18,381 bases of DNA from a virus. Under the pieces are notes generated by a model. That model was not told the origin of the DNA. It saw nothing but the letters and a program-made list of their open reading frames with translations, and did no database searches. Shown in pieces: positions 2,626-18,111 of the stretch. The position numbers were made by a program, and so were the translations under genes. The stretch lies in the UHGV virus genome UHGV-1767510. One strand, 5' to 3'. Each line of letters starts with the position of its first letter. Positions within the stretch are counted from its first letter, which is position 1.

Positions 2626-3302
2626 GCGGCGTTTTCCTTAATTTGATGAACATTATTGATGCCGTAGTAATCACAAACAGTGGCATCGACGAAAGAGAGA
2701 TCGTTATCAATCTCATTGGAATCAAACATTCCCATTGGGGATTTGACAGTGTCTGCACCGTTGTTTTTCGTGGTGAAAAAGAACTGGTCATCGCGGGTAA
2801 GAGTGCGAAGAACTATAGTAAACATGCCTTCGACAGTGATTTTCTCGTCCAGCATTTTGCCGATAGTTTTCATTTTCACGCGCCCCATAGGGGTTTCTTC
2901 GGTATGTGCAAGAAAATAGACTCTCAGGTCATCAGGTGCATCCTGTGCAGCCTTAATCACCTCCCATGCGTGGCGGCCTATCTCAGTGAATTTATCAAAC
3001 GATTTTTCTTCTGAGCGGCGCATAAACTCATTGCTCATCACATACTGGAAGTCATCAACAATAACGATTCTTTTCCCGTATTCGTGAGCACGCTTAATTA
3101 CGGCAACTATTACGTCCCATTTGTCAGTGGTAACTACGGTTCCTTTTTTTGCTCTGGCATCCCATGCCAGCCAGTCTTTTGATTTAAATGGAAGCGGCTT
3201 GCCTATTGGTTTTATAAGTATTGCTTCCTCTGGATTGATATTTCTCATGCTGGTTGATTTTCCGGTGCCAGATTCACCGAGTATTAATGTCGCAGTTCCC
3301 AT
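2622..3302 (-). CDS. Sak4-like RecA-core ATPase (phage single-strand annealing / recombination ATPase)
   Basis: 226 aa. N-terminal Walker A 'LILGESGTGKST' and Walker B-like 'RIVIVDDF'. Size and pairing with an SSB-like gene fit Sak4/AAA_24-type phage recombinases. Confidence 0.55.
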   Translation of the reverse strand: MGTATLILGESGTGKSTSMRNINPEEAILIKPIGKPLPFKSKDWLAWDARAKKGTVVTTDKWDVIVAVIKRAHEYGKRIVIVDDFQYVMSNEFMRRSEEKSFDKFTEIGRHAWEVIKAAQDAPDDLRVYFLAHTEETPMGRVKMKTIGKMLDEKITVEGMFTIVLRTLTRDDQFFFTTKNNGADTVKSPMGMFDSNEIDNDLSFVDATVCDYYGINNVHQIKENAA

Positions 3303-3310
3303 AATTTGCC

Positions 3311-3499
3311 TCAGAATGGTAATTCGGATGGGGAGGAAAGAAACTCACGCTCATTCATGCGCTCTCTTTGTGCCTGCCATAAGCAAAGTTGTTTCTTTGA
3401 TTTATCTCCCGCTTTACGCCAGTAACGAGCCTCAGCAATGTGATATTCTCTTTTTAATCGACTTAACTCTGGAGTTTTCGCCAGTTCTACCGGAATCAT
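3311..3499 (-). CDS. Small hypothetical protein (about 62 aa) in the position lambda uses for gam
   Basis: ORF track gives 3311..3511; an internal ATG at 3499 preceded by GGAGG is the more likely start (MIPVELAKTPELSRLKREYHIAEARYWRK...). No similarity to Gam recognised. Confidence 0.3.
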   Translation of the reverse strand: MIPVELAKTPELSRLKREYHIAEARYWRKAGDKSKKQLCLWQAQRERMNEREFLSSPSELPF

Positions 3500-3609
3500 T
3501 TTGACCTCCATTTTCTGTAGGCTTCGACGGCCTCACGAAACATCTTTTCATCGCCAATAAAAGCGGCGATAGTGAATTTAGTCTGGATAGCCATAAGTGT
3601 TTTATCCAT
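3496..3609 (-). CDS. kil: Kil-like host-killing protein (37 aa)
   Basis: Internal start of the 79-aa track ORF gives MDKTLMAIQTKFTIAAFIGDEKMFREAVEAYRKWRSK, which matches my recollection of the lambda Kil N-terminus. Overlaps the cIII stop as in lambda. Confidence 0.55.
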   Translation of the reverse strand: MDKTLMAIQTKFTIAAFIGDEKMFREAVEAYRKWRSK

Positions 3610-3742
3610 TCTTTGGGACTCCTGGCTGATTAAGTATGTCGATAAGGCGTTTCCATCCGTCACGTAATTTACGGGTGATTCGTTCAAGTAAAGATTCGGA
3701 AGGGCAGCCAGCAACAGGCCACCCTGCAATGGCATATTGCAT
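3602..3742 (-). CDS. cIII: CIII protein (FtsH inhibitor, stabilises CII)
   Basis: MQYAIAGWPVAGCPSESLLERITRKLRDGWKRLIDILNQPGVPKNG is essentially the lambda CIII sequence. ATG at 3740-3742 is preceded by AAGGAG; the upstream part of the 80-aa track ORF is not coding. Confidence 0.8.
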   Translation of the reverse strand: MQYAIAGWPVAGCPSESLLERITRKLRDGWKRLIDILNQPGVPKNG

Positions 3743-3802
3743 GGTGTGCTCCTTATTTATACATAACGAAAAACGCCTCGAGTGAAGCGTTATTGGTATG
3801 CA

Positions 3803-3829
3803 TATAAAAAGGCCCTCACACTGGAGGGC
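3803..3829 (-). terminator. Putative intrinsic terminator upstream of cIII (tL-like)
   Basis: Hairpin ggccctc-acactg-gagggc at 3812-3829 followed on the - strand by a T-run (3803-3810). Confidence 0.35.
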
Positions 3830-3947
3830 AAAGAAGATTTCCAATAATCAGAACAAGTCGGCTCCTGTTTAGTTACGAGCGACATTGCTCCGTGTATTCA
3901 CTCGTTGGAATGAATACACAGTGCAGTGTTTATTCTGTTGTTTATGC

Positions 3948-3974
3948 CAAAAATAAAGGCCGACTATGCGGCCT
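3948..3974 (-). terminator. Intrinsic terminator downstream of the 149-aa membrane-protein gene
   Basis: Hairpin aggccg-actatg-cggcct at 3957-3974 followed on the - strand by TTTATTTTT (3948-3956). Confidence 0.5.
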
Positions 3975-3978
3975 GAAA

Positions 3979-4428
3979 TTACTTAACCAATGATGCTGCA
4001 TATTCGATAAGGTAAAGCTTTGGGGCCAGCCAAATTTTTAACCAAGTCATATTGGTTACTACACCAATAATAAAAATCCCCCACAGAGTCAAAACTCCAA
4101 CCAATGGCATGATAAGAAGATTAATATCACCTTTGCTATCCCAAACCATTGTCGGCCTGTATTTGGGATTTCCTTTCTCCCATGAATATCCTTCATCACC
4201 GATTTTACCTGTCTCAACTCTTTGGCACTGCTTCTTCATAAACCAGAAAACCAGTGGGATTGTTAGAATGGCCATTAATGTTTTAATCAGACTGTCAACC
4301 ATATTCCATAGCAGCAACTGATGAACAACATCAGGAATCTGTGCCTGGCTAAATGAAACAGCCGCGTCTATTCCATTACTGGCTTTTTGCAGTAGTTCTA
4401 CGAGAATCTTGTTTGCTTGTTCTTCCAT
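3979..4428 (-). CDS. Small integral membrane protein, candidate superinfection-exclusion protein (sieB-like position)
   Basis: 149 aa with 2-3 hydrophobic helices (LMAILTIPLVFWFM; INLLIMPLVGVLTLWGIFIIGVV). Has its own RBS and flanking terminators; lies between N and cIII where lambda carries ral/sieB. Confidence 0.5.
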   Translation of the reverse strand: MEEQANKILVELLQKASNGIDAAVSFSQAQIPDVVHQLLLWNMVDSLIKTLMAILTIPLVFWFMKKQCQRVETGKIGDEGYSWEKGNPKYRPTMVWDSKGDINLLIMPLVGVLTLWGIFIIGVVTNMTWLKIWLAPKLYLIEYAASLVK

Positions 4429-4567
4429 ATATCACCTTGATTGTAATAAGCATGAAATTATTTACGGACAAAAATAAAGGCCACCATCAGGCAGCCTTGT
4501 AGTTCTGTTTACCAAGTTCTCTGGCAATCATTGTCGTCGTTCGTATTGTCCACACCATTGATTTGTA

Positions 4568-4654
4568 TCAATAGTCGTAGTCATACGGATAGTCCTGGTA
4601 TTGTTCCATCACATCCTGAGGATGCTCTTCGAACTCTTCAAATTCTTCTTCCAT
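4568..4654 (-). CDS. Very small, highly acidic peptide (MEEEFEEFEEHPQDVMEQYQDYPYDYDY)
   Basis: Absent from the ORF track (too short). Its RBS/start context (aggtgatatATGGAAGAA) is nearly identical to that of the 149-aa gene downstream, and it is followed by a similar 'caaaaataaaggcc' terminator-like element. Confidence 0.3.
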   Translation of the reverse strand: MEEEFEEFEEHPQDVMEQYQDYPYDYDY

Positions 4655-4712
4655 ATATCACCTCAAATAAGTGGTTTGCTGCCTAATTTCATTTTCTGGC
4701 GACCAACACAAG

Positions 4713-5096
4713 TCACCTCGCCGTCAGTTGTTTTGATTTCCGGTAGCCTGCCGCGTAAATGGCTACGTTTGGAAGACATACACCAGTTTCTGGTTGCCTA
4801 TGCCCAAACTCATTCGCGTACACAATGGCCGCTCTCTCCAGATTGCGTCTGTATTCTTTCTGTTGCCAGATCACGTCCTGTGCCATGAACTTAATTGGCT
4901 TAGCGTCTTCTATGCGCTCAGGCGTTTCGTGTTTACCTTTAGCCTGAATCTGTGCCAGACTGAGGGTAGGGCGGTGTAATACTTCTGAACTTATTGCTTC
5001 TTCGCGGGCCAGCACGCCGTTAGCTAATGCCTTTGCCTTTAAACGCTCACGACGACGAGAACGTGAATTGCCTTTGAACTGAGTTCTGCGTGTCAT
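4713..5096 (-). CDS. N: Antitermination protein N (P22/Stx-phage type)
   Basis: Arginine-rich N-terminal motif (GNSRSRRRERLKAKA) and C-terminal ...AAGYRKSKQLTAR typical of N-family proteins. First gene downstream of pL/nutL. Confidence 0.8.
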   Translation of the reverse strand: MTRRTQFKGNSRSRRRERLKAKALANGVLAREEAISSEVLHRPTLSLAQIQAKGKHETPERIEDAKPIKFMAQDVIWQQKEYRRNLERAAIVYANEFGHRQPETGVCLPNVAIYAAGYRKSKQLTAR

Positions 5097-5261
5097 ATAG
5101 ACCTCCTGATGAACTTTGGTGGTGTGGTAGGTGGGAGACCCATTTCGACCTGTTTCGGCCTACTTCAATTCGGCAATAGTCCCGCAGGCCTCGCCGCTTT
5201 ACGTGCGACATATTCCCGTCCATGAACCCTTCACCACACCCCAAAGTTCACTTTGGTTATT

Positions 5262-5276
5262 GCGCTTTGTCAGCGC
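5262..5276 (-). promoter_or_regulatory. nutL boxB hairpin (GCGCUGACAAAGCGC in the leftward transcript)
   Basis: Stem-loop gcgc-tgacaaa-gcgc between pL and N. The same loop recurs downstream of cro (nutR); it matches the P22/phage-21 style boxB rather than lambda GCCCUGAAAAAGGGC. I could not find a convincing boxA. Confidence 0.5.
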
Positions 5277-5337
5277 CGTAGATTCATATTCGAATCGTTG
5301 TATATTCACCGCCCTGGTGAGTAGTGCGTCCTGCTGA

Positions 5338-5407
5338 TGTGTTTAGTATCACCGCCAGTGGTATTTATGTCAACACCGCTAGAGATAATTAATCACCGCA
5401 GATGGTT
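5338..5407 (-). promoter_or_regulatory. oL1-oL2-oL3 operators and pL promoter
   Basis: tatcaccgccagtggta (5347-5363), caacaccgctagagata (5371-5387) and aatcaccgcagatggtt (5391-5407) match lambda oL1/oL2/oL3 with at most 1-2 changes. On the - strand, -35 TTGACA and -10 GATACT direct leftward transcription. Confidence 0.85.
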
Positions 5408-5550
5408 ATCTGTATGTTTTTTATATGAATTTATTTTTTGCAGGGGGCATTGTTTGGTAGGTGAGAGATCTGAATTGCTATGTTTAGTGAGTTGTATCTA
5501 TTAATTTTCAAATAAATACAATTGGTTATGTGTTTTTTTTGGGGGGGTAG

Positions 5551-5578
5551 GCAAAGAAAACCCGGCTCGGTGGCCGGG
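5551..5578 (-). terminator. Intrinsic terminator ending the cI / cassette transcript
   Basis: Hairpin cccggc-tcggtg-gccggg (5561-5578) followed on the - strand by TTTTCTTTG; lies 8 bp past the stop of the 310-aa gene. Confidence 0.6.
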
Positions 5579-5585
5579 TGAGATA

Positions 5586-6518
5586 TTAAAGAACCGATTT
5601 AACAAGATGGTTTTTACGGTACAGACCTATGCGATCATTGTGAATCTCAGTAGTCTCCACTAAAAGAGAAACAATCTGTCCGACCTTGTGTTTTTTTTGT
5701 ATTAAATCTAGCATTTCAATCGGATAGGAAGCCTTTAAATGTTCACCACCAACATCAAGCTCCAGCTTCCCATATTTGGATAGAACGACCAGTTCGCCTG
5801 TAACCGTTTCAGTAATGGGAGGGGATGAAATGGTTGATGTAAGTCTACTCACCAAGTACTTAATTTTATTGGAGTCAATAGTTGCCACCTTGGTGCCATT
5901 ACTAAATGGACCGGTCCAACTTGCATCAAATGTTAAGTTGTGTTTATCGCATTCCTCTACGATTCTCTTAAGGCTTACAGTGGAATTGTATCCAATTTCA
6001 GCGACGTGATTCATGAAGTTGTTGTCGTCATCGCTTAACAACAAATCGAATATGCCTTTTACAGCCTTGCTGGGTACTGTTTCTACTAATTCTGCTATTC
6101 CTGTAGAGAAGGTGACGCCCAATTTTGTAGACCCAGGGGATAAATCAGCCAGCCTGAGGTTTAAGGAGCTTTTCACGTCGTAGGGAACTTTTTTTGAGTC
6201 CTTGCCTGAGGCAATTTTGTGTGTTGCTCTTTGTATTAGCGCTGCAAGATTTGTTGAAATAGCCCCAAGCAGCTCTAAAGGAATAGAGCCAAAGTCAACC
6301 TCAGAGCCTTTCAGCCGCAGCTCAAAAAAATCGATAAGTGGGTGCCGACTATCTTGCTTTAATTTTTCGGCCTTCAAATCGCTCAGATGAGAATCCATGG
6401 AGCGATAAAGAAGCATGTCAGCAAAGGACCTGGTTTTGTTTTGCTTCATTGCATCGACTTCTTTTTGAATGAAATCAATGCGTTTATCGCAATTTTTAAA
6501 CATTGATTTATCATTCAT
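5586..6518 (-). CDS. Unknown 310-aa protein, second gene of the rex-slot cassette (candidate effector or partner)
   Basis: Long ORF translationally coupled to the upstream gene (ATGA overlap at 6515-6518). No motif I can assign (no Walker A, HEPN, HNH or PD-(D/E)xK signatures seen by eye). Confidence 0.7.
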   Translation of the reverse strand: MNDKSMFKNCDKRIDFIQKEVDAMKQNKTRSFADMLLYRSMDSHLSDLKAEKLKQDSRHPLIDFFELRLKGSEVDFGSIPLELLGAISTNLAALIQRATHKIASGKDSKKVPYDVKSSLNLRLADLSPGSTKLGVTFSTGIAELVETVPSKAVKGIFDLLLSDDDNNFMNHVAEIGYNSTVSLKRIVEECDKHNLTFDASWTGPFSNGTKVATIDSNKIKYLVSRLTSTISSPPITETVTGELVVLSKYGKLELDVGGEHLKASYPIEMLDLIQKKHKVGQIVSLLVETTEIHNDRIGLYRKNHLVKSVL

Positions 6519-6994
6519 AAAAAAATCCTCACTAACCCTTTCGGGTTTTCACTGCGATCAAAACCAAACCAACCGCGCCAGTAGCTACGCCAGTACTCAT
6601 AATCATAGTTAGGGTCATCTAAATTCTTCATGAGTAGTAGGACATCAATTTTGTAGTTTTGTTTGATGTAGTTTCGGTCAAGCAAATTATCGACGCGGCC
6701 CCGAAGCATGACAGGTATTGAGTTTATATTGCTATAGTCACATACCAACAAAATATCAATATCATCAGGCTCTGGTTTAGACGTGGTGTATGAACCATCA
6801 ACCCATATTTCTGTAAAACAGCCATATTGAGCAGATAATTCTCGAATAGATTCGAGTAGCTGTATAAAATTACAGTATAGCATGCCTCGCCTGGATGATG
6901 AAGGAAAGCAATCGACACAATACGATTTTAATCCAGCTTCATCCATGTCATGGAACCCTGGCTCAAACAGGGGTGGGTAATTAATTTTATCCAT
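6515..6994 (-). CDS. Putative minimal nucleotidyltransferase-fold protein (159 aa), first gene of the rex-slot cassette
   Basis: Motif WVDGSYTTSKPEPDDIDILLV fits the Pol-beta superfamily NTase signature hG[GS]-x9-Dh[DE]h. RBS AAGG 6 nt before the ATG. Lies immediately downstream of cI, where lambda has rexA. Confidence 0.65.
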   Translation of the reverse strand: MDKINYPPLFEPGFHDMDEAGLKSYCVDCFPSSSRRGMLYCNFIQLLESIRELSAQYGCFTEIWVDGSYTTSKPEPDDIDILLVCDYSNINSIPVMLRGRVDNLLDRNYIKQNYKIDVLLLMKNLDDPNYDYEYWRSYWRGWFGFDRSENPKGLVRIFL

Positions 6995-17955: not shown

Positions 17956-18030
17956 GGGTCAGTCGTATAAAGGTCATTACGGAAGGCTGTTAACCTTCTT
18001 ATCGTGGTTCGAGTCCACGCTGTCCCGCCA
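17956..18030 (+). tRNA. tRNA-like gene, anticodon GUU (Asn) by manual folding; possibly degenerate
   Basis: Manual cloverleaf: acceptor gggtcag/ctgtccc with one T-T mismatch, D-arm with GG, perfect anticodon stem gaagg/ccttc with loop CTGTTAA, T-arm cgtgg-TTCGAGT-ccacg, discriminator G and encoded CCA. Confidence 0.45.
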
Positions 18031-18035
18031 AACAT

Positions 18036-18111
18036 GCTGGTTTAGCTCCAATGGTAGAGCAGTCGCCTTGTAAGCGAATGGGTAGCGGTTCAAGTCCGTT
18101 AACCAGCACCA
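18036..18111 (+). tRNA. tRNA gene, anticodon UGU (Thr) by manual folding
   Basis: Manual cloverleaf: perfect 7-bp acceptor gctggtt/aaccagc, D-arm gctc-CAATGGTA-gagc, anticodon loop CTTGTAA (stem with one G-A mismatch), T-arm agcgg-TTCAAGT-ccgtt, discriminator A and encoded CCA. Confidence 0.7.

What the first reader, a model, noticed from the sequence alone, without database searches (positions are those of the whole stretch)
3945..4660. Tandem mini-cassettes between N and cIII: acidic 28-aa peptide and 149-aa membrane protein sharing duplicated start and terminator signals
Two adjacent leftward units share nearly identical 5' contexts (cttcttccatatatcacct at about 4418-4436 and 4636-4659, i.e. 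AGGTGATATATGGAAGAA on the coding strand). Both also share similar 3' elements (caaaaataaaggcc + hairpin at about 3948-3974 and 4468-4498). The upstream unit encodes only MEEEFEEFEEHPQDVMEQYQDYPYDYDY, an extremely acidic aromatic-rich peptide. The downstream unit encodes a 2-3-TM membrane protein in the sieB/ral position. The duplicated signals suggest modular cassette exchange. Acidic peptides at this position could act as DNA mimics or anti-restriction factors, and the membrane protein as superinfection exclusion.
Basis: seen in the sequence. Interest (0 to 1): 0.55.

Follow-up and report, generated by a model that had tools for sequence, protein, structure and literature searches.

The report
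Lambda orf28–ral remnant plus stacked membrane-gene cassette
The two "mini-cassettes" are phage lambda's long-annotated orf28 with a broken copy of the anti-restriction gene ral, followed by a separately mobile, uncharacterised membrane-protein gene; the shared start and terminator sequences are the seams at which lambda-like phages swap or stack these genes, which is an ordinary kind of phage mosaicism.

Summary
An exact 18-nt ribosome-binding/start repeat lies at 4420-4437 and 4646-4663. An exact 14-nt terminator repeat lies at 3948-3961 and 4469-4482. Neither is expected by chance.

- **Upstream unit.** The 28-aa acidic peptide is identical to lambda orf28 (lambdap47).
- **Downstream unit.** The 149-aa gene belongs to PHROG 3054, with no Pfam, PDB or defence-library match. 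It is not SieB.
- **Cassette exchange.** Related phages carry either orf28-ral or the membrane gene behind the same start sequence and in front of the same terminator, or both in tandem as here. A third unrelated gene (933W L0079) uses the same left seam. This supports cassette exchange at short shared boundary sequences.
- **orf28 coding.** Its variation falls on third codon positions (15 of 17 sites), so it evolves as a real coding gene.
- **Membrane family.** It is large, stand-alone, found in early-left and post-lysis positions, and internally mosaic.

Functions of both products remain untested. The kind of feature is known; interest is modest.

The parts
4713..5096 (-). N antiterminator gene (933W type); upstream anchor of the region, transcribed from pL (about 5373-5345)
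   Evidence: Pfam N_peptide E 3e-15 and phrog_271. The only promoter-like site in 3000-6000 is TTGACA-17-GATACT at 5373-5345.
4663..4722 (-). Fossil of a lambda-type N C-terminus in another frame (GEVTCVGRQKMKLGSKPLI*). Its TGA stop (4663-4665) overlaps the Shine-Dalgarno sequence of orf28. This is the 'N-type' left flank shared by three alternative cargo genes.
   Evidence: Translation compared with the lambda N C-terminus ERGITCSGRQKIKGKSIPLI*. The same flank precedes the membrane gene in L032/L069/L077/L078 and L0079 in 933W.
4646..4663 (-). Start-signal repeat, copy 1: AGGTGAT (7-nt Shine-Dalgarno) + AT + ATG GAA GAA. Translation initiation region of orf28 and left cassette boundary.
   Evidence: Exact 18-nt repeat. 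Identical in lambda.
4568..4654 (-). orf28: a 28-aa peptide with 12 acidic, 0 basic and 7 aromatic residues, identical to lambda lambdap47 / NP_040623
   Evidence: phrog_16060 E 7e-19. Variation pattern indicates purifying selection in this frame.
4487..4584 (-). ral pseudogene: 98 nt instead of 201 nt. A 103-nt internal deletion with its junction at the CAAT microhomology (4545-4548) leaves an 18-codon frame. Its start overlaps orf28 by 17 nt.
   Evidence: Alignment with intact ral of AP042519, lambda and P22. PGAP annotates the identical remnant as 'antirestriction Ral family protein, frameshifted'.
4469..4498 (-). Terminator 1: hairpin 4498-4477, whose 5' arm is the last ral codons and stop, plus a T-tract. 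Contains 14-nt repeat copy 1 (4469-4482).
   Evidence: -13.9 kcal/mol, z -3.6.
4438..4468 (-). 31-nt spacer tccgtaaataatttcatgcttattacaatca. Its 3' part resembles the end of a lambda-type N variant that directly precedes the membrane gene in other phages.
   Evidence: Compare 'ccagcttattacgattgaggtgagatATG' in L166 and similar loci. The spacer is constant in all tandem loci.
4420..4437 (-). Start-signal repeat, copy 2: translation initiation region of the membrane gene
3979..4428 (-). 149-aa two-TM membrane protein gene (PHROG 3054, function unknown). Inserted relative to lambda. Conserved N-terminal (~1-42) and C-terminal (~127-149) segments flank a variable core.
   Evidence: phrog_3054 E 4e-64. 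No Pfam, NCBIfam, PADLOC or PDB match. Homologues. Hydropathy. Alignments.
3948..3974 (-). Terminator 2: hairpin 3974-3957 plus a T-tract. Contains 14-nt repeat copy 2 (3948-3961). Continues into the lambda-like sequence GCATAAA(C/T)AACAGAATAAACACTGCAC.
   Evidence: Lambda has a single copy at this point.
3882..3929 (-). Conserved 22-nt-arm inverted repeat downstream of the cassettes. Right-hand anchor shared by lambda, by the tandem and replacement loci, and by 933W.
3602..3755 (-). cIII gene (3602-3742) with its RNA thermometer (3697-3755); downstream anchor. ea10 is missing between the hairpin at 3829-3812 and cIII.
   Evidence: Rfam RF01804, 88.5 bits. Pfam Lambda_CIII E 9e-31. Comparison with lambda.

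Best explanation
**What it is.** The region is the N-to-cIII stretch of the early-left (pL) operon of a lambda-like prophage. It holds two independent gene modules placed head to tail.

- Module 1 is lambda's orf28-ral pair. orf28 is intact. ral is destroyed by a 103-nt microhomology deletion. The module ends in the hairpin that overlaps the ral stop codon.
- Module 2 is a single, separately mobile gene for a two-TM membrane protein (PHROG 3054) with its own terminator hairpin.

**The repeats.** The 18-nt start repeat and the 14-nt terminator repeat are the left and right boundary sequences of these modules. In other phages either module sits alone between the same boundaries. Recombination at these short shared sequences (inferred: Red/Rad52-type or illegitimate recombination between co-resident phages) replaces one module by the other. 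When the crossover falls at the terminator, it stacks them, as here.

**Expression (inferred from lambda).**
- Both ORFs are translated from the N-antiterminated pL transcript during lytic or early development, from identical strong Shine-Dalgarno sites.
- The hairpins stop or trim transcripts that are not N-modified.

**Products.**
- orf28 is a genuinely coding acidic peptide, most likely working together with Ral. This is inferred from obligate linkage.
- The membrane protein acts alone at the inner membrane. My best guess is protection of the infected or lysogenic cell against other phages. This guess is weakly supported.
For: **Identity of the parts**
- orf28 is 100% identical to lambdap47 and overlaps ral by 17 nt exactly as in lambda.
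- The ral remnant aligns to intact ral with a clean 103-nt gap and is called a frameshifted Ral pseudogene by PGAP in CP166722.

**Insertion relative to lambda**
- Lambda has one copy of GGCCTTTATTTTTG followed by GCATAAATAACAG.
- The window has that 14-mer on both sides of a 521-nt insert that carries the membrane gene.

**Alternative occupancy of one site**
- In Salmonella P22-like prophages and several IMG/VR contigs the membrane gene follows the lambda-type sieB-orf28 intergenic sequence right up to AGGTGATATATG.
- In others it follows the same N-proximal flank that precedes orf28 in the window.
- Among 80 close relatives there were about 24 directly after N, about 14 directly after the sieB flank and about 27 in tandem behind ral. 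Of the tandem loci, 14 had intact ral and 7 had the same deletion.
- 933W L0079, an unrelated 156-aa gene, uses the same left seam up to the ATG.

**Hybrid start**
- Divergent family members start MNEQ and lie after the lysis cassette.
- The pL-operon versions start MEEQ, that is, with orf28's ATG GAA.

**orf28 is coding**
- 15 of 17 variable sites outside the ral overlap are third codon positions (P = 4.5e-6).
- 17 of 29 variants are synonymous against 13% expected (P = 1e-8). Only 3-4 would be synonymous in the other frames.
- orf28 is present with ral in lambda, P22 and BTP1.

**Expression**
- The only sigma-70-like site in 3000-6000 is pL.

**Known principle**
- Module exchange through short conserved flanking sequences is described for lambdoid phages (PMC2327257).
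Against: - No expression data were available. Translation of orf28 and of the membrane gene is inferred.
- The exact crossover that produced the tandem is not reconstructed. The first 17 nt of the 31-nt spacer (4452-4468) have no identified source.
- The promoter scan is a strict consensus scan. A weak promoter (for example TTGTCC-17-TATTAC at about 4467-4439) cannot be excluded, so expression in the lysogen is not ruled out.
- The near-identity of orf28 between lambda and P22 partly reflects a recently shared mosaic segment rather than long-term constraint.
- Nothing directly supports any specific function for either product. The AF2 model is of low confidence (pLDDT 62.6) and has no structural neighbours.
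Confidence: 0.8

Rival explanations
1. In-situ tandem duplication: one ancestral cassette (start signal, gene, terminator) duplicated locally and the two coding regions then diverged beyond recognition.
For: Head-to-tail arrangement with repeated ends.
Against: - The coding regions share nothing beyond three codons.
- Each unit occurs alone, between the same flanks, in many phages.
- The membrane gene has an older history at another genomic position, with a different start (MNEQ, after the lysis genes).
Confidence: 0.03
2. The repeats are convergent functional signals (an optimal Shine-Dalgarno/start context and an efficient terminator) selected independently. They are not recombination seams.
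For: - AGGTGAT is a perfect 7-nt complement of the 16S rRNA 3' end.
- Both 14-mers are the stem half plus U-tract of terminator-like hairpins.
Against: - Identity extends over positions with no known signal value: the ATAT spacer, codons 2-3, and the sequence 3' of the T-tract shared with lambda.
- The points at which sequences of different phages stop being alignable coincide with these repeats in dozens of loci.
Confidence: 0.07
3. orf28 is not a functional peptide but only a leader ORF. Its translation delivers ribosomes to the overlapping ral start (translational coupling), so in this window, where ral is dead, it is a relic.
For: - The 17-nt overlap with the ral start is constant in lambda, P22 and BTP1.
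- orf28 is never seen without ral in the loci sampled.
- A divergent ral with its own upstream region lacks it.
- orf28 is non-essential in lambda (PMC10695390).
Against: - A pure coupling leader would not need its amino-acid sequence conserved, yet substitutions are strongly biased to synonymous third positions.
- The non-synonymous changes seen are mostly E/D swaps that keep the acidic character.
- ral has its own AGGA 8 nt upstream of its ATG (sequence).
Confidence: 0.2
4. The membrane protein is a lysis-associated factor (holin/antiholin-like or envelope modifier) rather than an exclusion or defence protein.
For: - In many divergent phages it lies directly after holin-endolysin-spanin genes.
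- In Pantoea its start overlaps the Rz1-like gene.
Against: - No holin, spanin or lysis family match in Pfam or PHROGs.
- In the window and in about 33 of 93 sampled loci it is in the early-left operon, far from the lysis genes.
- Its neighbours in divergent phages are heterogeneous.
- The post-lysis slot is a well-known site of accessory genes (my own knowledge: lambda bor).
Confidence: 0.15

Closest known systems
Bacteriophage lambda orf28-ral segment (lambdap47/lambdap46, 34,087-34,357)
   Same: - The orf28 peptide is identical.
- The Shine-Dalgarno/start sequence is the same.
- The 17-nt orf28/ral overlap is the same.
- The sequence after the terminator T-tract is the same.
   Different: - ral carries a 103-nt internal deletion.
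- sieB is absent between N and orf28.
- N is of the 933W type.
- A 521-nt cassette is inserted after the ral hairpin.
- ea10 is missing.
- The ral 3' hairpin is stronger than lambda's.
Morons / accessory-gene cassettes of lambdoid phages (concept from the HK97/HK022 comparison; my own knowledge)
   Same: A single extra gene with its own terminator sits between genes that are adjacent in a relative. The same gene is found at different hot spots (pL operon, after the lysis cassette) in different phages.
   Different: No consensus promoter of its own was found. It appears to depend on pL and on a start sequence borrowed from orf28.
Module exchange through short conserved flanking sequences in lambdoid phages (cited in PMC2327257 as an alternative to illegitimate recombination)
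   Same: Abrupt changes of homology occur at short sequences shared by otherwise unrelated cassettes, here a translation initiation region and a terminator.
   Different: The boundaries here are only 14-18 nt, at the lower limit for homologous recombination. Microhomology-mediated joining may be involved instead. This was not tested.
Small inner-membrane superinfection-exclusion proteins (T4 Imm, P22 SieA, HK97 gp15; my own knowledge)
   Same: Small phage-encoded proteins with one or two TM helices, acting alone and encoded in accessory positions. This is a working analogy for the 149-aa protein.
   Different: No sequence or fold similarity was detected, and no phenotype is known. This is an analogy only, not membership.
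Acidic DNA-mimic anti-restriction proteins (Ocr, ArdA; my own knowledge)
   Same: Strong negative charge. The gene lies next to an anti-restriction gene and is expressed early.
   Different: orf28 is only 28 aa, far shorter than known mimics (about 100-170 aa). It has no homology to them and no predicted fold. No activity has been shown.

Membership tests
Lambda orf28 (lambdap47, phrog_16060) | 28-aa sequence MEEEFEEFEEHPQDVMEQYQDYPYDYDY encoded immediately upstream of ral, with its 3' end overlapping the ral start | tested here: met
   100% identity to the lambda translation. phrog_16060 E 7e-19. Same 17-nt overlap. The exact sequence is on record as AAA96576.1 / Q38269_LAMBD.
Ral antirestriction family | Intact ORF of about 64-66 aa including the four-cysteine segment (C11, C17, C20, C26 in lambda Ral) | tested here: not met
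   Only 98 nt remain. The 103-nt deletion removes codons for C17-K45 and shifts the frame, leaving 18 codons. PGAP flags the same remnant as frameshifted.
SieB superinfection exclusion (PF14163) | Match to the SieB profile; in lambda and P22 it is encoded opposite to N | tested here: not met
   No Pfam hit for the 149-aa protein at E <= 1. In Salmonella relatives a separate 195-aa PF14163 gene lies next to it on the other strand.
PHROG 3054 (unnamed phage membrane-protein family) | Full-length match to the profile; conserved N-terminal (..FSQAQIPDV..QLL.W) and C-terminal (WLKIW.APKLYLIEYAA) motifs | tested here: met
   E 4.2e-64 over residues 1-149. The motifs are invariant or nearly so in alignments A1 and A2. 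All 56 diverse members hit phrog_3054.
Moron | Extra gene inserted between genes that are adjacent in a related phage | tested here: met
   Lambda and mEp506 have ral, hairpin and GCATAAA with no gene in between.
Moron | Own terminator downstream | tested here: met
   Hairpin 3974-3957 plus T-tract. Termination activity itself was not tested.
Moron | Own promoter that allows expression from the repressed prophage | tested here: inconclusive
   No sigma-70 consensus match between ral and the gene. The scan is strict, and a weak TTGTCC-17-TATTAC can be read in the sequence.
Known anti-phage defence proteins (PADLOC) | Match to a defence-system profile | tested here: not met
   No hit for the 149-aa or the 28-aa product at E <= 1.
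Holins / lysis proteins | Match to a holin, antiholin or spanin family | tested here: not met
   No such Pfam or PHROG family for the query or for 56 diverse members.
DNA-mimic anti-restriction proteins | Folded surface that displays acidic residues in a DNA-like array, and binding to type I restriction enzymes | not testable with these tools
   Only composition is known: 12 D/E, 0 K/R, pI about 4.

The most novel reading that the evidence does not exclude
Two linked possibilities are not excluded.

(1) orf28 is a translated acidic/aromatic micro-protein that works with Ral. It might be a co-factor that contacts the type I restriction-modification enzyme, or a partner that keeps Ral in check. 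It would be retained here after loss of ral.

(2) PHROG 3054 is a very large, unrecognised family (2,488 clusters at 50% identity) of stand-alone phage membrane proteins. Its conserved terminal helices would carry the activity, and its swappable TM-loop-TM core would set specificity, for instance for which incoming phages are excluded.
Probability: 0.2. Interest if true: 0.55.

Novelty: new member of a known kind. Interest (0 to 1): 0.3.

Why it matters
The main result is a correction. What looked like a novel peptide cassette is lambda's 40-year-old orf28 plus a decayed ral. The repeated signals illustrate, unusually cleanly, how lambdoid phages exchange and stack small early genes at a shared ribosome-binding site and a shared terminator.

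Two by-products may be worth a small experiment.
- There is evolutionary evidence that the never-characterised orf28 peptide is under purifying selection and always travels with the anti-restriction gene ral.
- A very widespread phage membrane-protein family has no Pfam entry and no known function. It moves between the early-left operon and the post-lysis slot, and it shows allele-like replacement of its central segment.

Tried and rejected
- **Rfam.** Searches at gathering and permissive thresholds found only the cIII thermometer and two tRNAs. There is no sRNA in the region.
- **Profile libraries.** Pfam, NCBIfam, PADLOC and PDB profile searches gave nothing for the 149-aa and 28-aa products.
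- **Structure.** The AlphaFold2 model had low confidence (pLDDT 62.6). Foldseek against BFVD gave no match better than E = 2.6. The afdb50 library was unavailable.
- **Literature.** Two attempts to open the paper I took to be the lambda ribosome-profiling study, using a DOI and a PMC id recalled from memory, found nothing held under those ids. Full-text searches for the peptide strings, accessions and PHROG ids found only annotation tables: orf28 is non-essential (PMC10695390) and there is a delta-orf28-ral strain list (PMC2327257). No functional study turned up.
- **Conserved partner gene.** A neighbour survey in divergent phages gave heterogeneous results: HNH endonucleases, sigma factor, helicase, spanin, tail fibres, terminase. 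No operon partner can be inferred.
- **Tandem duplication** was considered and rejected; see the rival explanations.
- **15-nt imperfect repeat** (3971-3985 / 4450-4464, 13 of 15 matches). It was considered as a further seam but cannot be distinguished from chance.
Full report
**Context**

The window carries the immunity and early region of a lambda-like (Stx-phage-like) prophage. On the minus strand:
- a pL-like promoter lies at 5373-5345;
- a 933W-type N gene lies at 4713-5096 (Pfam N_peptide and phrog_271);
- cIII lies at 3602-3742, with its RNA thermometer at 3697-3755 (Rfam RF01804, 88.5 bits; Pfam Lambda_CIII).

The finding covers what lies between N and cIII.

**Check of the observation**

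The repeats are real and not chance.
- AGGTGATATATGGAAGAA occurs exactly at 4420-4437 and 4646-4663. Even with three mismatches allowed, 0.01 matches are expected, and none of 200 shuffles gave two.
- GGCCTTTATTTTTG occurs exactly at 3948-3961 and 4469-4482.
- Each 14-mer is the 3' stem half plus T-tract of a terminator-like hairpin, at 4498-4477 and 3974-3957. Folding energies are -13.9 and -10.1 kcal/mol, with z-scores of -3.6 and -2.0. The 5' arms and loops differ between the two.
- The two ORFs are as described.

**What the upstream unit is**

The 28-aa peptide is identical to lambda orf28 (lambdap47, NP_040623). Its exact sequence is on record as AAA96576.1, and it has its own PHROG family (phrog_16060).

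In lambda, orf28 overlaps the start of ral by 17 nt. The same holds here, but ral is broken.
- Alignment with intact ral from E. coli AP042519, lambda and P22 shows a clean 103-nt gap.
- Its junction lies at a CAAT microhomology (4545-4548), and it leaves an 18-codon frame.
- NCBI's pipeline annotates the identical remnant in CP166722 as 'antirestriction Ral family protein, frameshifted'.

So the unit is orf28 plus a ral pseudogene plus the hairpin that overlaps the ral stop codon. It is not a peptide-only cassette.

**What the downstream unit is**

The 149-aa protein matches PHROG 3054 (function unknown) over its whole length (E 4e-64). It matches nothing in Pfam, NCBIfam, PADLOC or the PDB. 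It is not SieB: in Salmonella relatives a separate PF14163 gene lies beside it on the other strand.

Its anatomy:
- Two hydrophobic segments lie at about 44-64 and 104-125.
- A low-confidence AlphaFold2 model (pLDDT 62.6) shows four helices and has no structural neighbours in BFVD.
- Across the family, lysine/arginine density is 0.16 in the central loop, against 0.06 and 0.10 in the N- and C-terminal segments. By the positive-inside rule this favours a cytoplasmic loop and periplasmic termini. This is an inference.

**The repeats are cassette boundaries**

*Right boundary.* Lambda has a single GGCCTTTATTTTTG followed by GCATAAATAACAGAATAAACACTGCAC. In the window the same 14-mer flanks a 521-nt insert on both sides, and the lambda-like continuation follows the second copy.

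*Left boundary.*
- In Salmonella P22-like prophages and several IMG/VR contigs the membrane gene follows the lambda-type sequence ...ccgcaatccactatttaAGGTGATATATG. It therefore sits exactly where orf28-ral sits in lambda.
- In other contigs it follows ...ggcagcaaaccacttatttgAGGTGATATATG, the very flank that precedes orf28 in this window.
- That flank is a fossil of a lambda-type N C-terminus whose TGA overlaps the Shine-Dalgarno sequence.

*Frequencies.* Among 80 close relatives of the gene in IMG/VR:
- about 24 are directly behind N;
- about 14 are directly behind the sieB-type flank;
- about 27 are in tandem behind ral. Of these, 14 have intact ral and 7 have the same 103-nt deletion.

*A third cargo.* 933W L0079 is unrelated in sequence but is joined at the same left seam, up to the ATG.

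*Hybrid start.* Divergent members of the membrane family (58-78% identity) begin MNEQ and lie after the holin-endolysin-spanin genes, before terminase. The pL-operon versions begin MEEQ, so they carry orf28's ATG GAA. Their start region is a hybrid.

They fit the known proposal that some lambdoid modules are exchanged through short conserved flanking sequences (PMC2327257). They argue against in-situ duplication and against mere convergence of signals.

**Is orf28 a real gene?**

- Across 131 copies (22 distinct DNA sequences), 15 of the 17 variable sites outside the ral overlap are third codon positions (P = 4.5e-6).
- 17 of 29 distinct variants are synonymous, where 13% is expected (P = 1e-8). 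In the other two frames only 3-4 would be synonymous.
- Amino-acid changes are mostly E/D swaps.
- orf28 accompanies ral in lambda, P22 (identical peptide although Ral is only 74% identical) and BTP1 (four changes). A divergent ral with its own upstream region lacks it.
- A caveat: part of the lambda-P22 identity reflects a shared mosaic segment that ends inside ral.
- In lambda, orf28 is listed as non-essential (PMC10695390).
- No functional study was found.

I conclude that it is translated and that its sequence matters, probably in connection with Ral. What it does is unknown. A DNA-mimic role rests only on composition: 12 acidic, 0 basic and 7 aromatic residues.

**The membrane family**

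- A profile search of 1.84 billion representatives found 2,488 clusters at E <= 1e-3 and 1,159 at E <= 1e-10.
- The N-terminal segment of about 42 residues and the C-terminal segment of about 23 residues are conserved. The TM-loop-TM core varies in sequence and length, with loops of 0-74 aa.
- Within E. coli phages, alleles of 149, 140 and 121 aa share 92-96% DNA identity over the first 120 nt and 80-85% over the last 75 nt. Their centres are unalignable, at about 32% identity. The gene is therefore itself mosaic.
- Of 93 sampled viral contigs, 33 place it in the pL operon and 16 next to the lysis genes.
- In the remaining, divergent phages the neighbours are heterogeneous, with no conserved partner.

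It therefore acts alone and moves as a single-gene accessory cassette.

**Expression and likely function**

No sigma-70 consensus promoter lies between ral and the gene. In this window it should therefore be expressed from pL under N antitermination. This step is inferred from lambda biology.

| Candidate function of the membrane protein | My estimate | Basis |
|---|---|---|
| Exclusion of, or defence against, other phages | about 0.35 | analogy with small membrane exclusion proteins; accessory positions |
| Lysis- or envelope-related role | about 0.15 | frequent position after the lysis genes |
| Something else | the rest | no direct evidence |

**Verdict**

- The anatomy is confirmed and explained: lambda orf28, a decayed ral, and a stacked PHROG 3054 cassette, joined at shared start and terminator sequences.
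- This is a new instance of a known kind of phage mosaicism, built from one known ORF, one known (broken) gene and one uncharacterised family.
- Interest is modest. The most useful leads are the selection signal on orf28 and the large, unannotated and internally mosaic membrane family.

Noticed in passing
window 5586-6518 (-) and 6515-6994 (-): The two overlapping genes between pL and the repressor region (the rexAB position) match the PADLOC candidate defence system PDC-M63. The B component gives E 7.5e-45 and the A component gives E 1.8e-41.
   Followed up: no
window 3772-3850, compared with lambda L007 700-1180: ea10 (DUF2528) is absent. Relative to lambda it is removed cleanly between the T-tract after the hairpin gccctccagtgtgagggc (3829-3812) and the sequence cataccaataacg upstream of cIII. 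Close E. coli relatives of this region still carry ea10. It is another optional cassette bounded by terminator-like hairpins.
   Followed up: partly
window 3882-3929: An inverted repeat with 22-nt arms (82% complementary, 4-nt spacing) is conserved in lambda, in all cassette arrangements and in 933W, where it forms the right seam of L0079. It has no Rfam match and its function is unknown.
   Followed up: partly
window 4663-4722 (-): A fossil of a lambda-type N C-terminus (GEVTCVGRQKMKLGSKPLI*) lies out of frame behind the 933W-type N gene, and its stop codon overlaps orf28's Shine-Dalgarno sequence. Lambda's own orf28 upstream sequence (ccactatttaAGGTG) looks like a second, degenerate copy. 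This suggests that sieB was inserted into an ancestral N-orf28 junction.
   Followed up: partly
L002 (phage 933W) 1735-2260: L0079, a 156-aa protein unrelated to both cassettes, occupies the same slot after N and uses the same GAGGTGAGATATG start context. It lacks the GGCCTTTATTTTTG terminator and joins directly to the conserved inverted repeat.
   Followed up: partly
L049, L059 and other IMG/VR loci (membrane-gene alleles): Alleles of 149, 140 and 121 aa have nearly identical 5' and 3' ends and unrelated central TM-loop-TM segments. This is gene-internal cassette replacement.
   Followed up: partly
Alignment A5 (window, lambda, P22): Lambda and P22 are almost identical from the sieB-orf28 intergenic region through orf28 and the first ~50 nt of ral, and then diverge sharply. 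A mosaic junction therefore lies inside ral.
   Followed up: no
window 3971-3985 and 4450-4464: An imperfect 15-nt direct repeat (13 of 15 matches) lies at the 3' end of the membrane gene and in the spacer after the ral terminator. It is either a further recombination scar or chance.
   Followed up: no
window 17956-18027 and 18036-18108 (+): Two adjacent tRNA genes lie at the right end of the window (Rfam tRNA, 55.3 and 61.5 bits).
   Followed up: no
L228 2424-3182: In one divergent phage the gene upstream of the membrane-family member matches the BstA abortive-infection protein (phrog_6287, E 3.7e-82).
   Followed up: no
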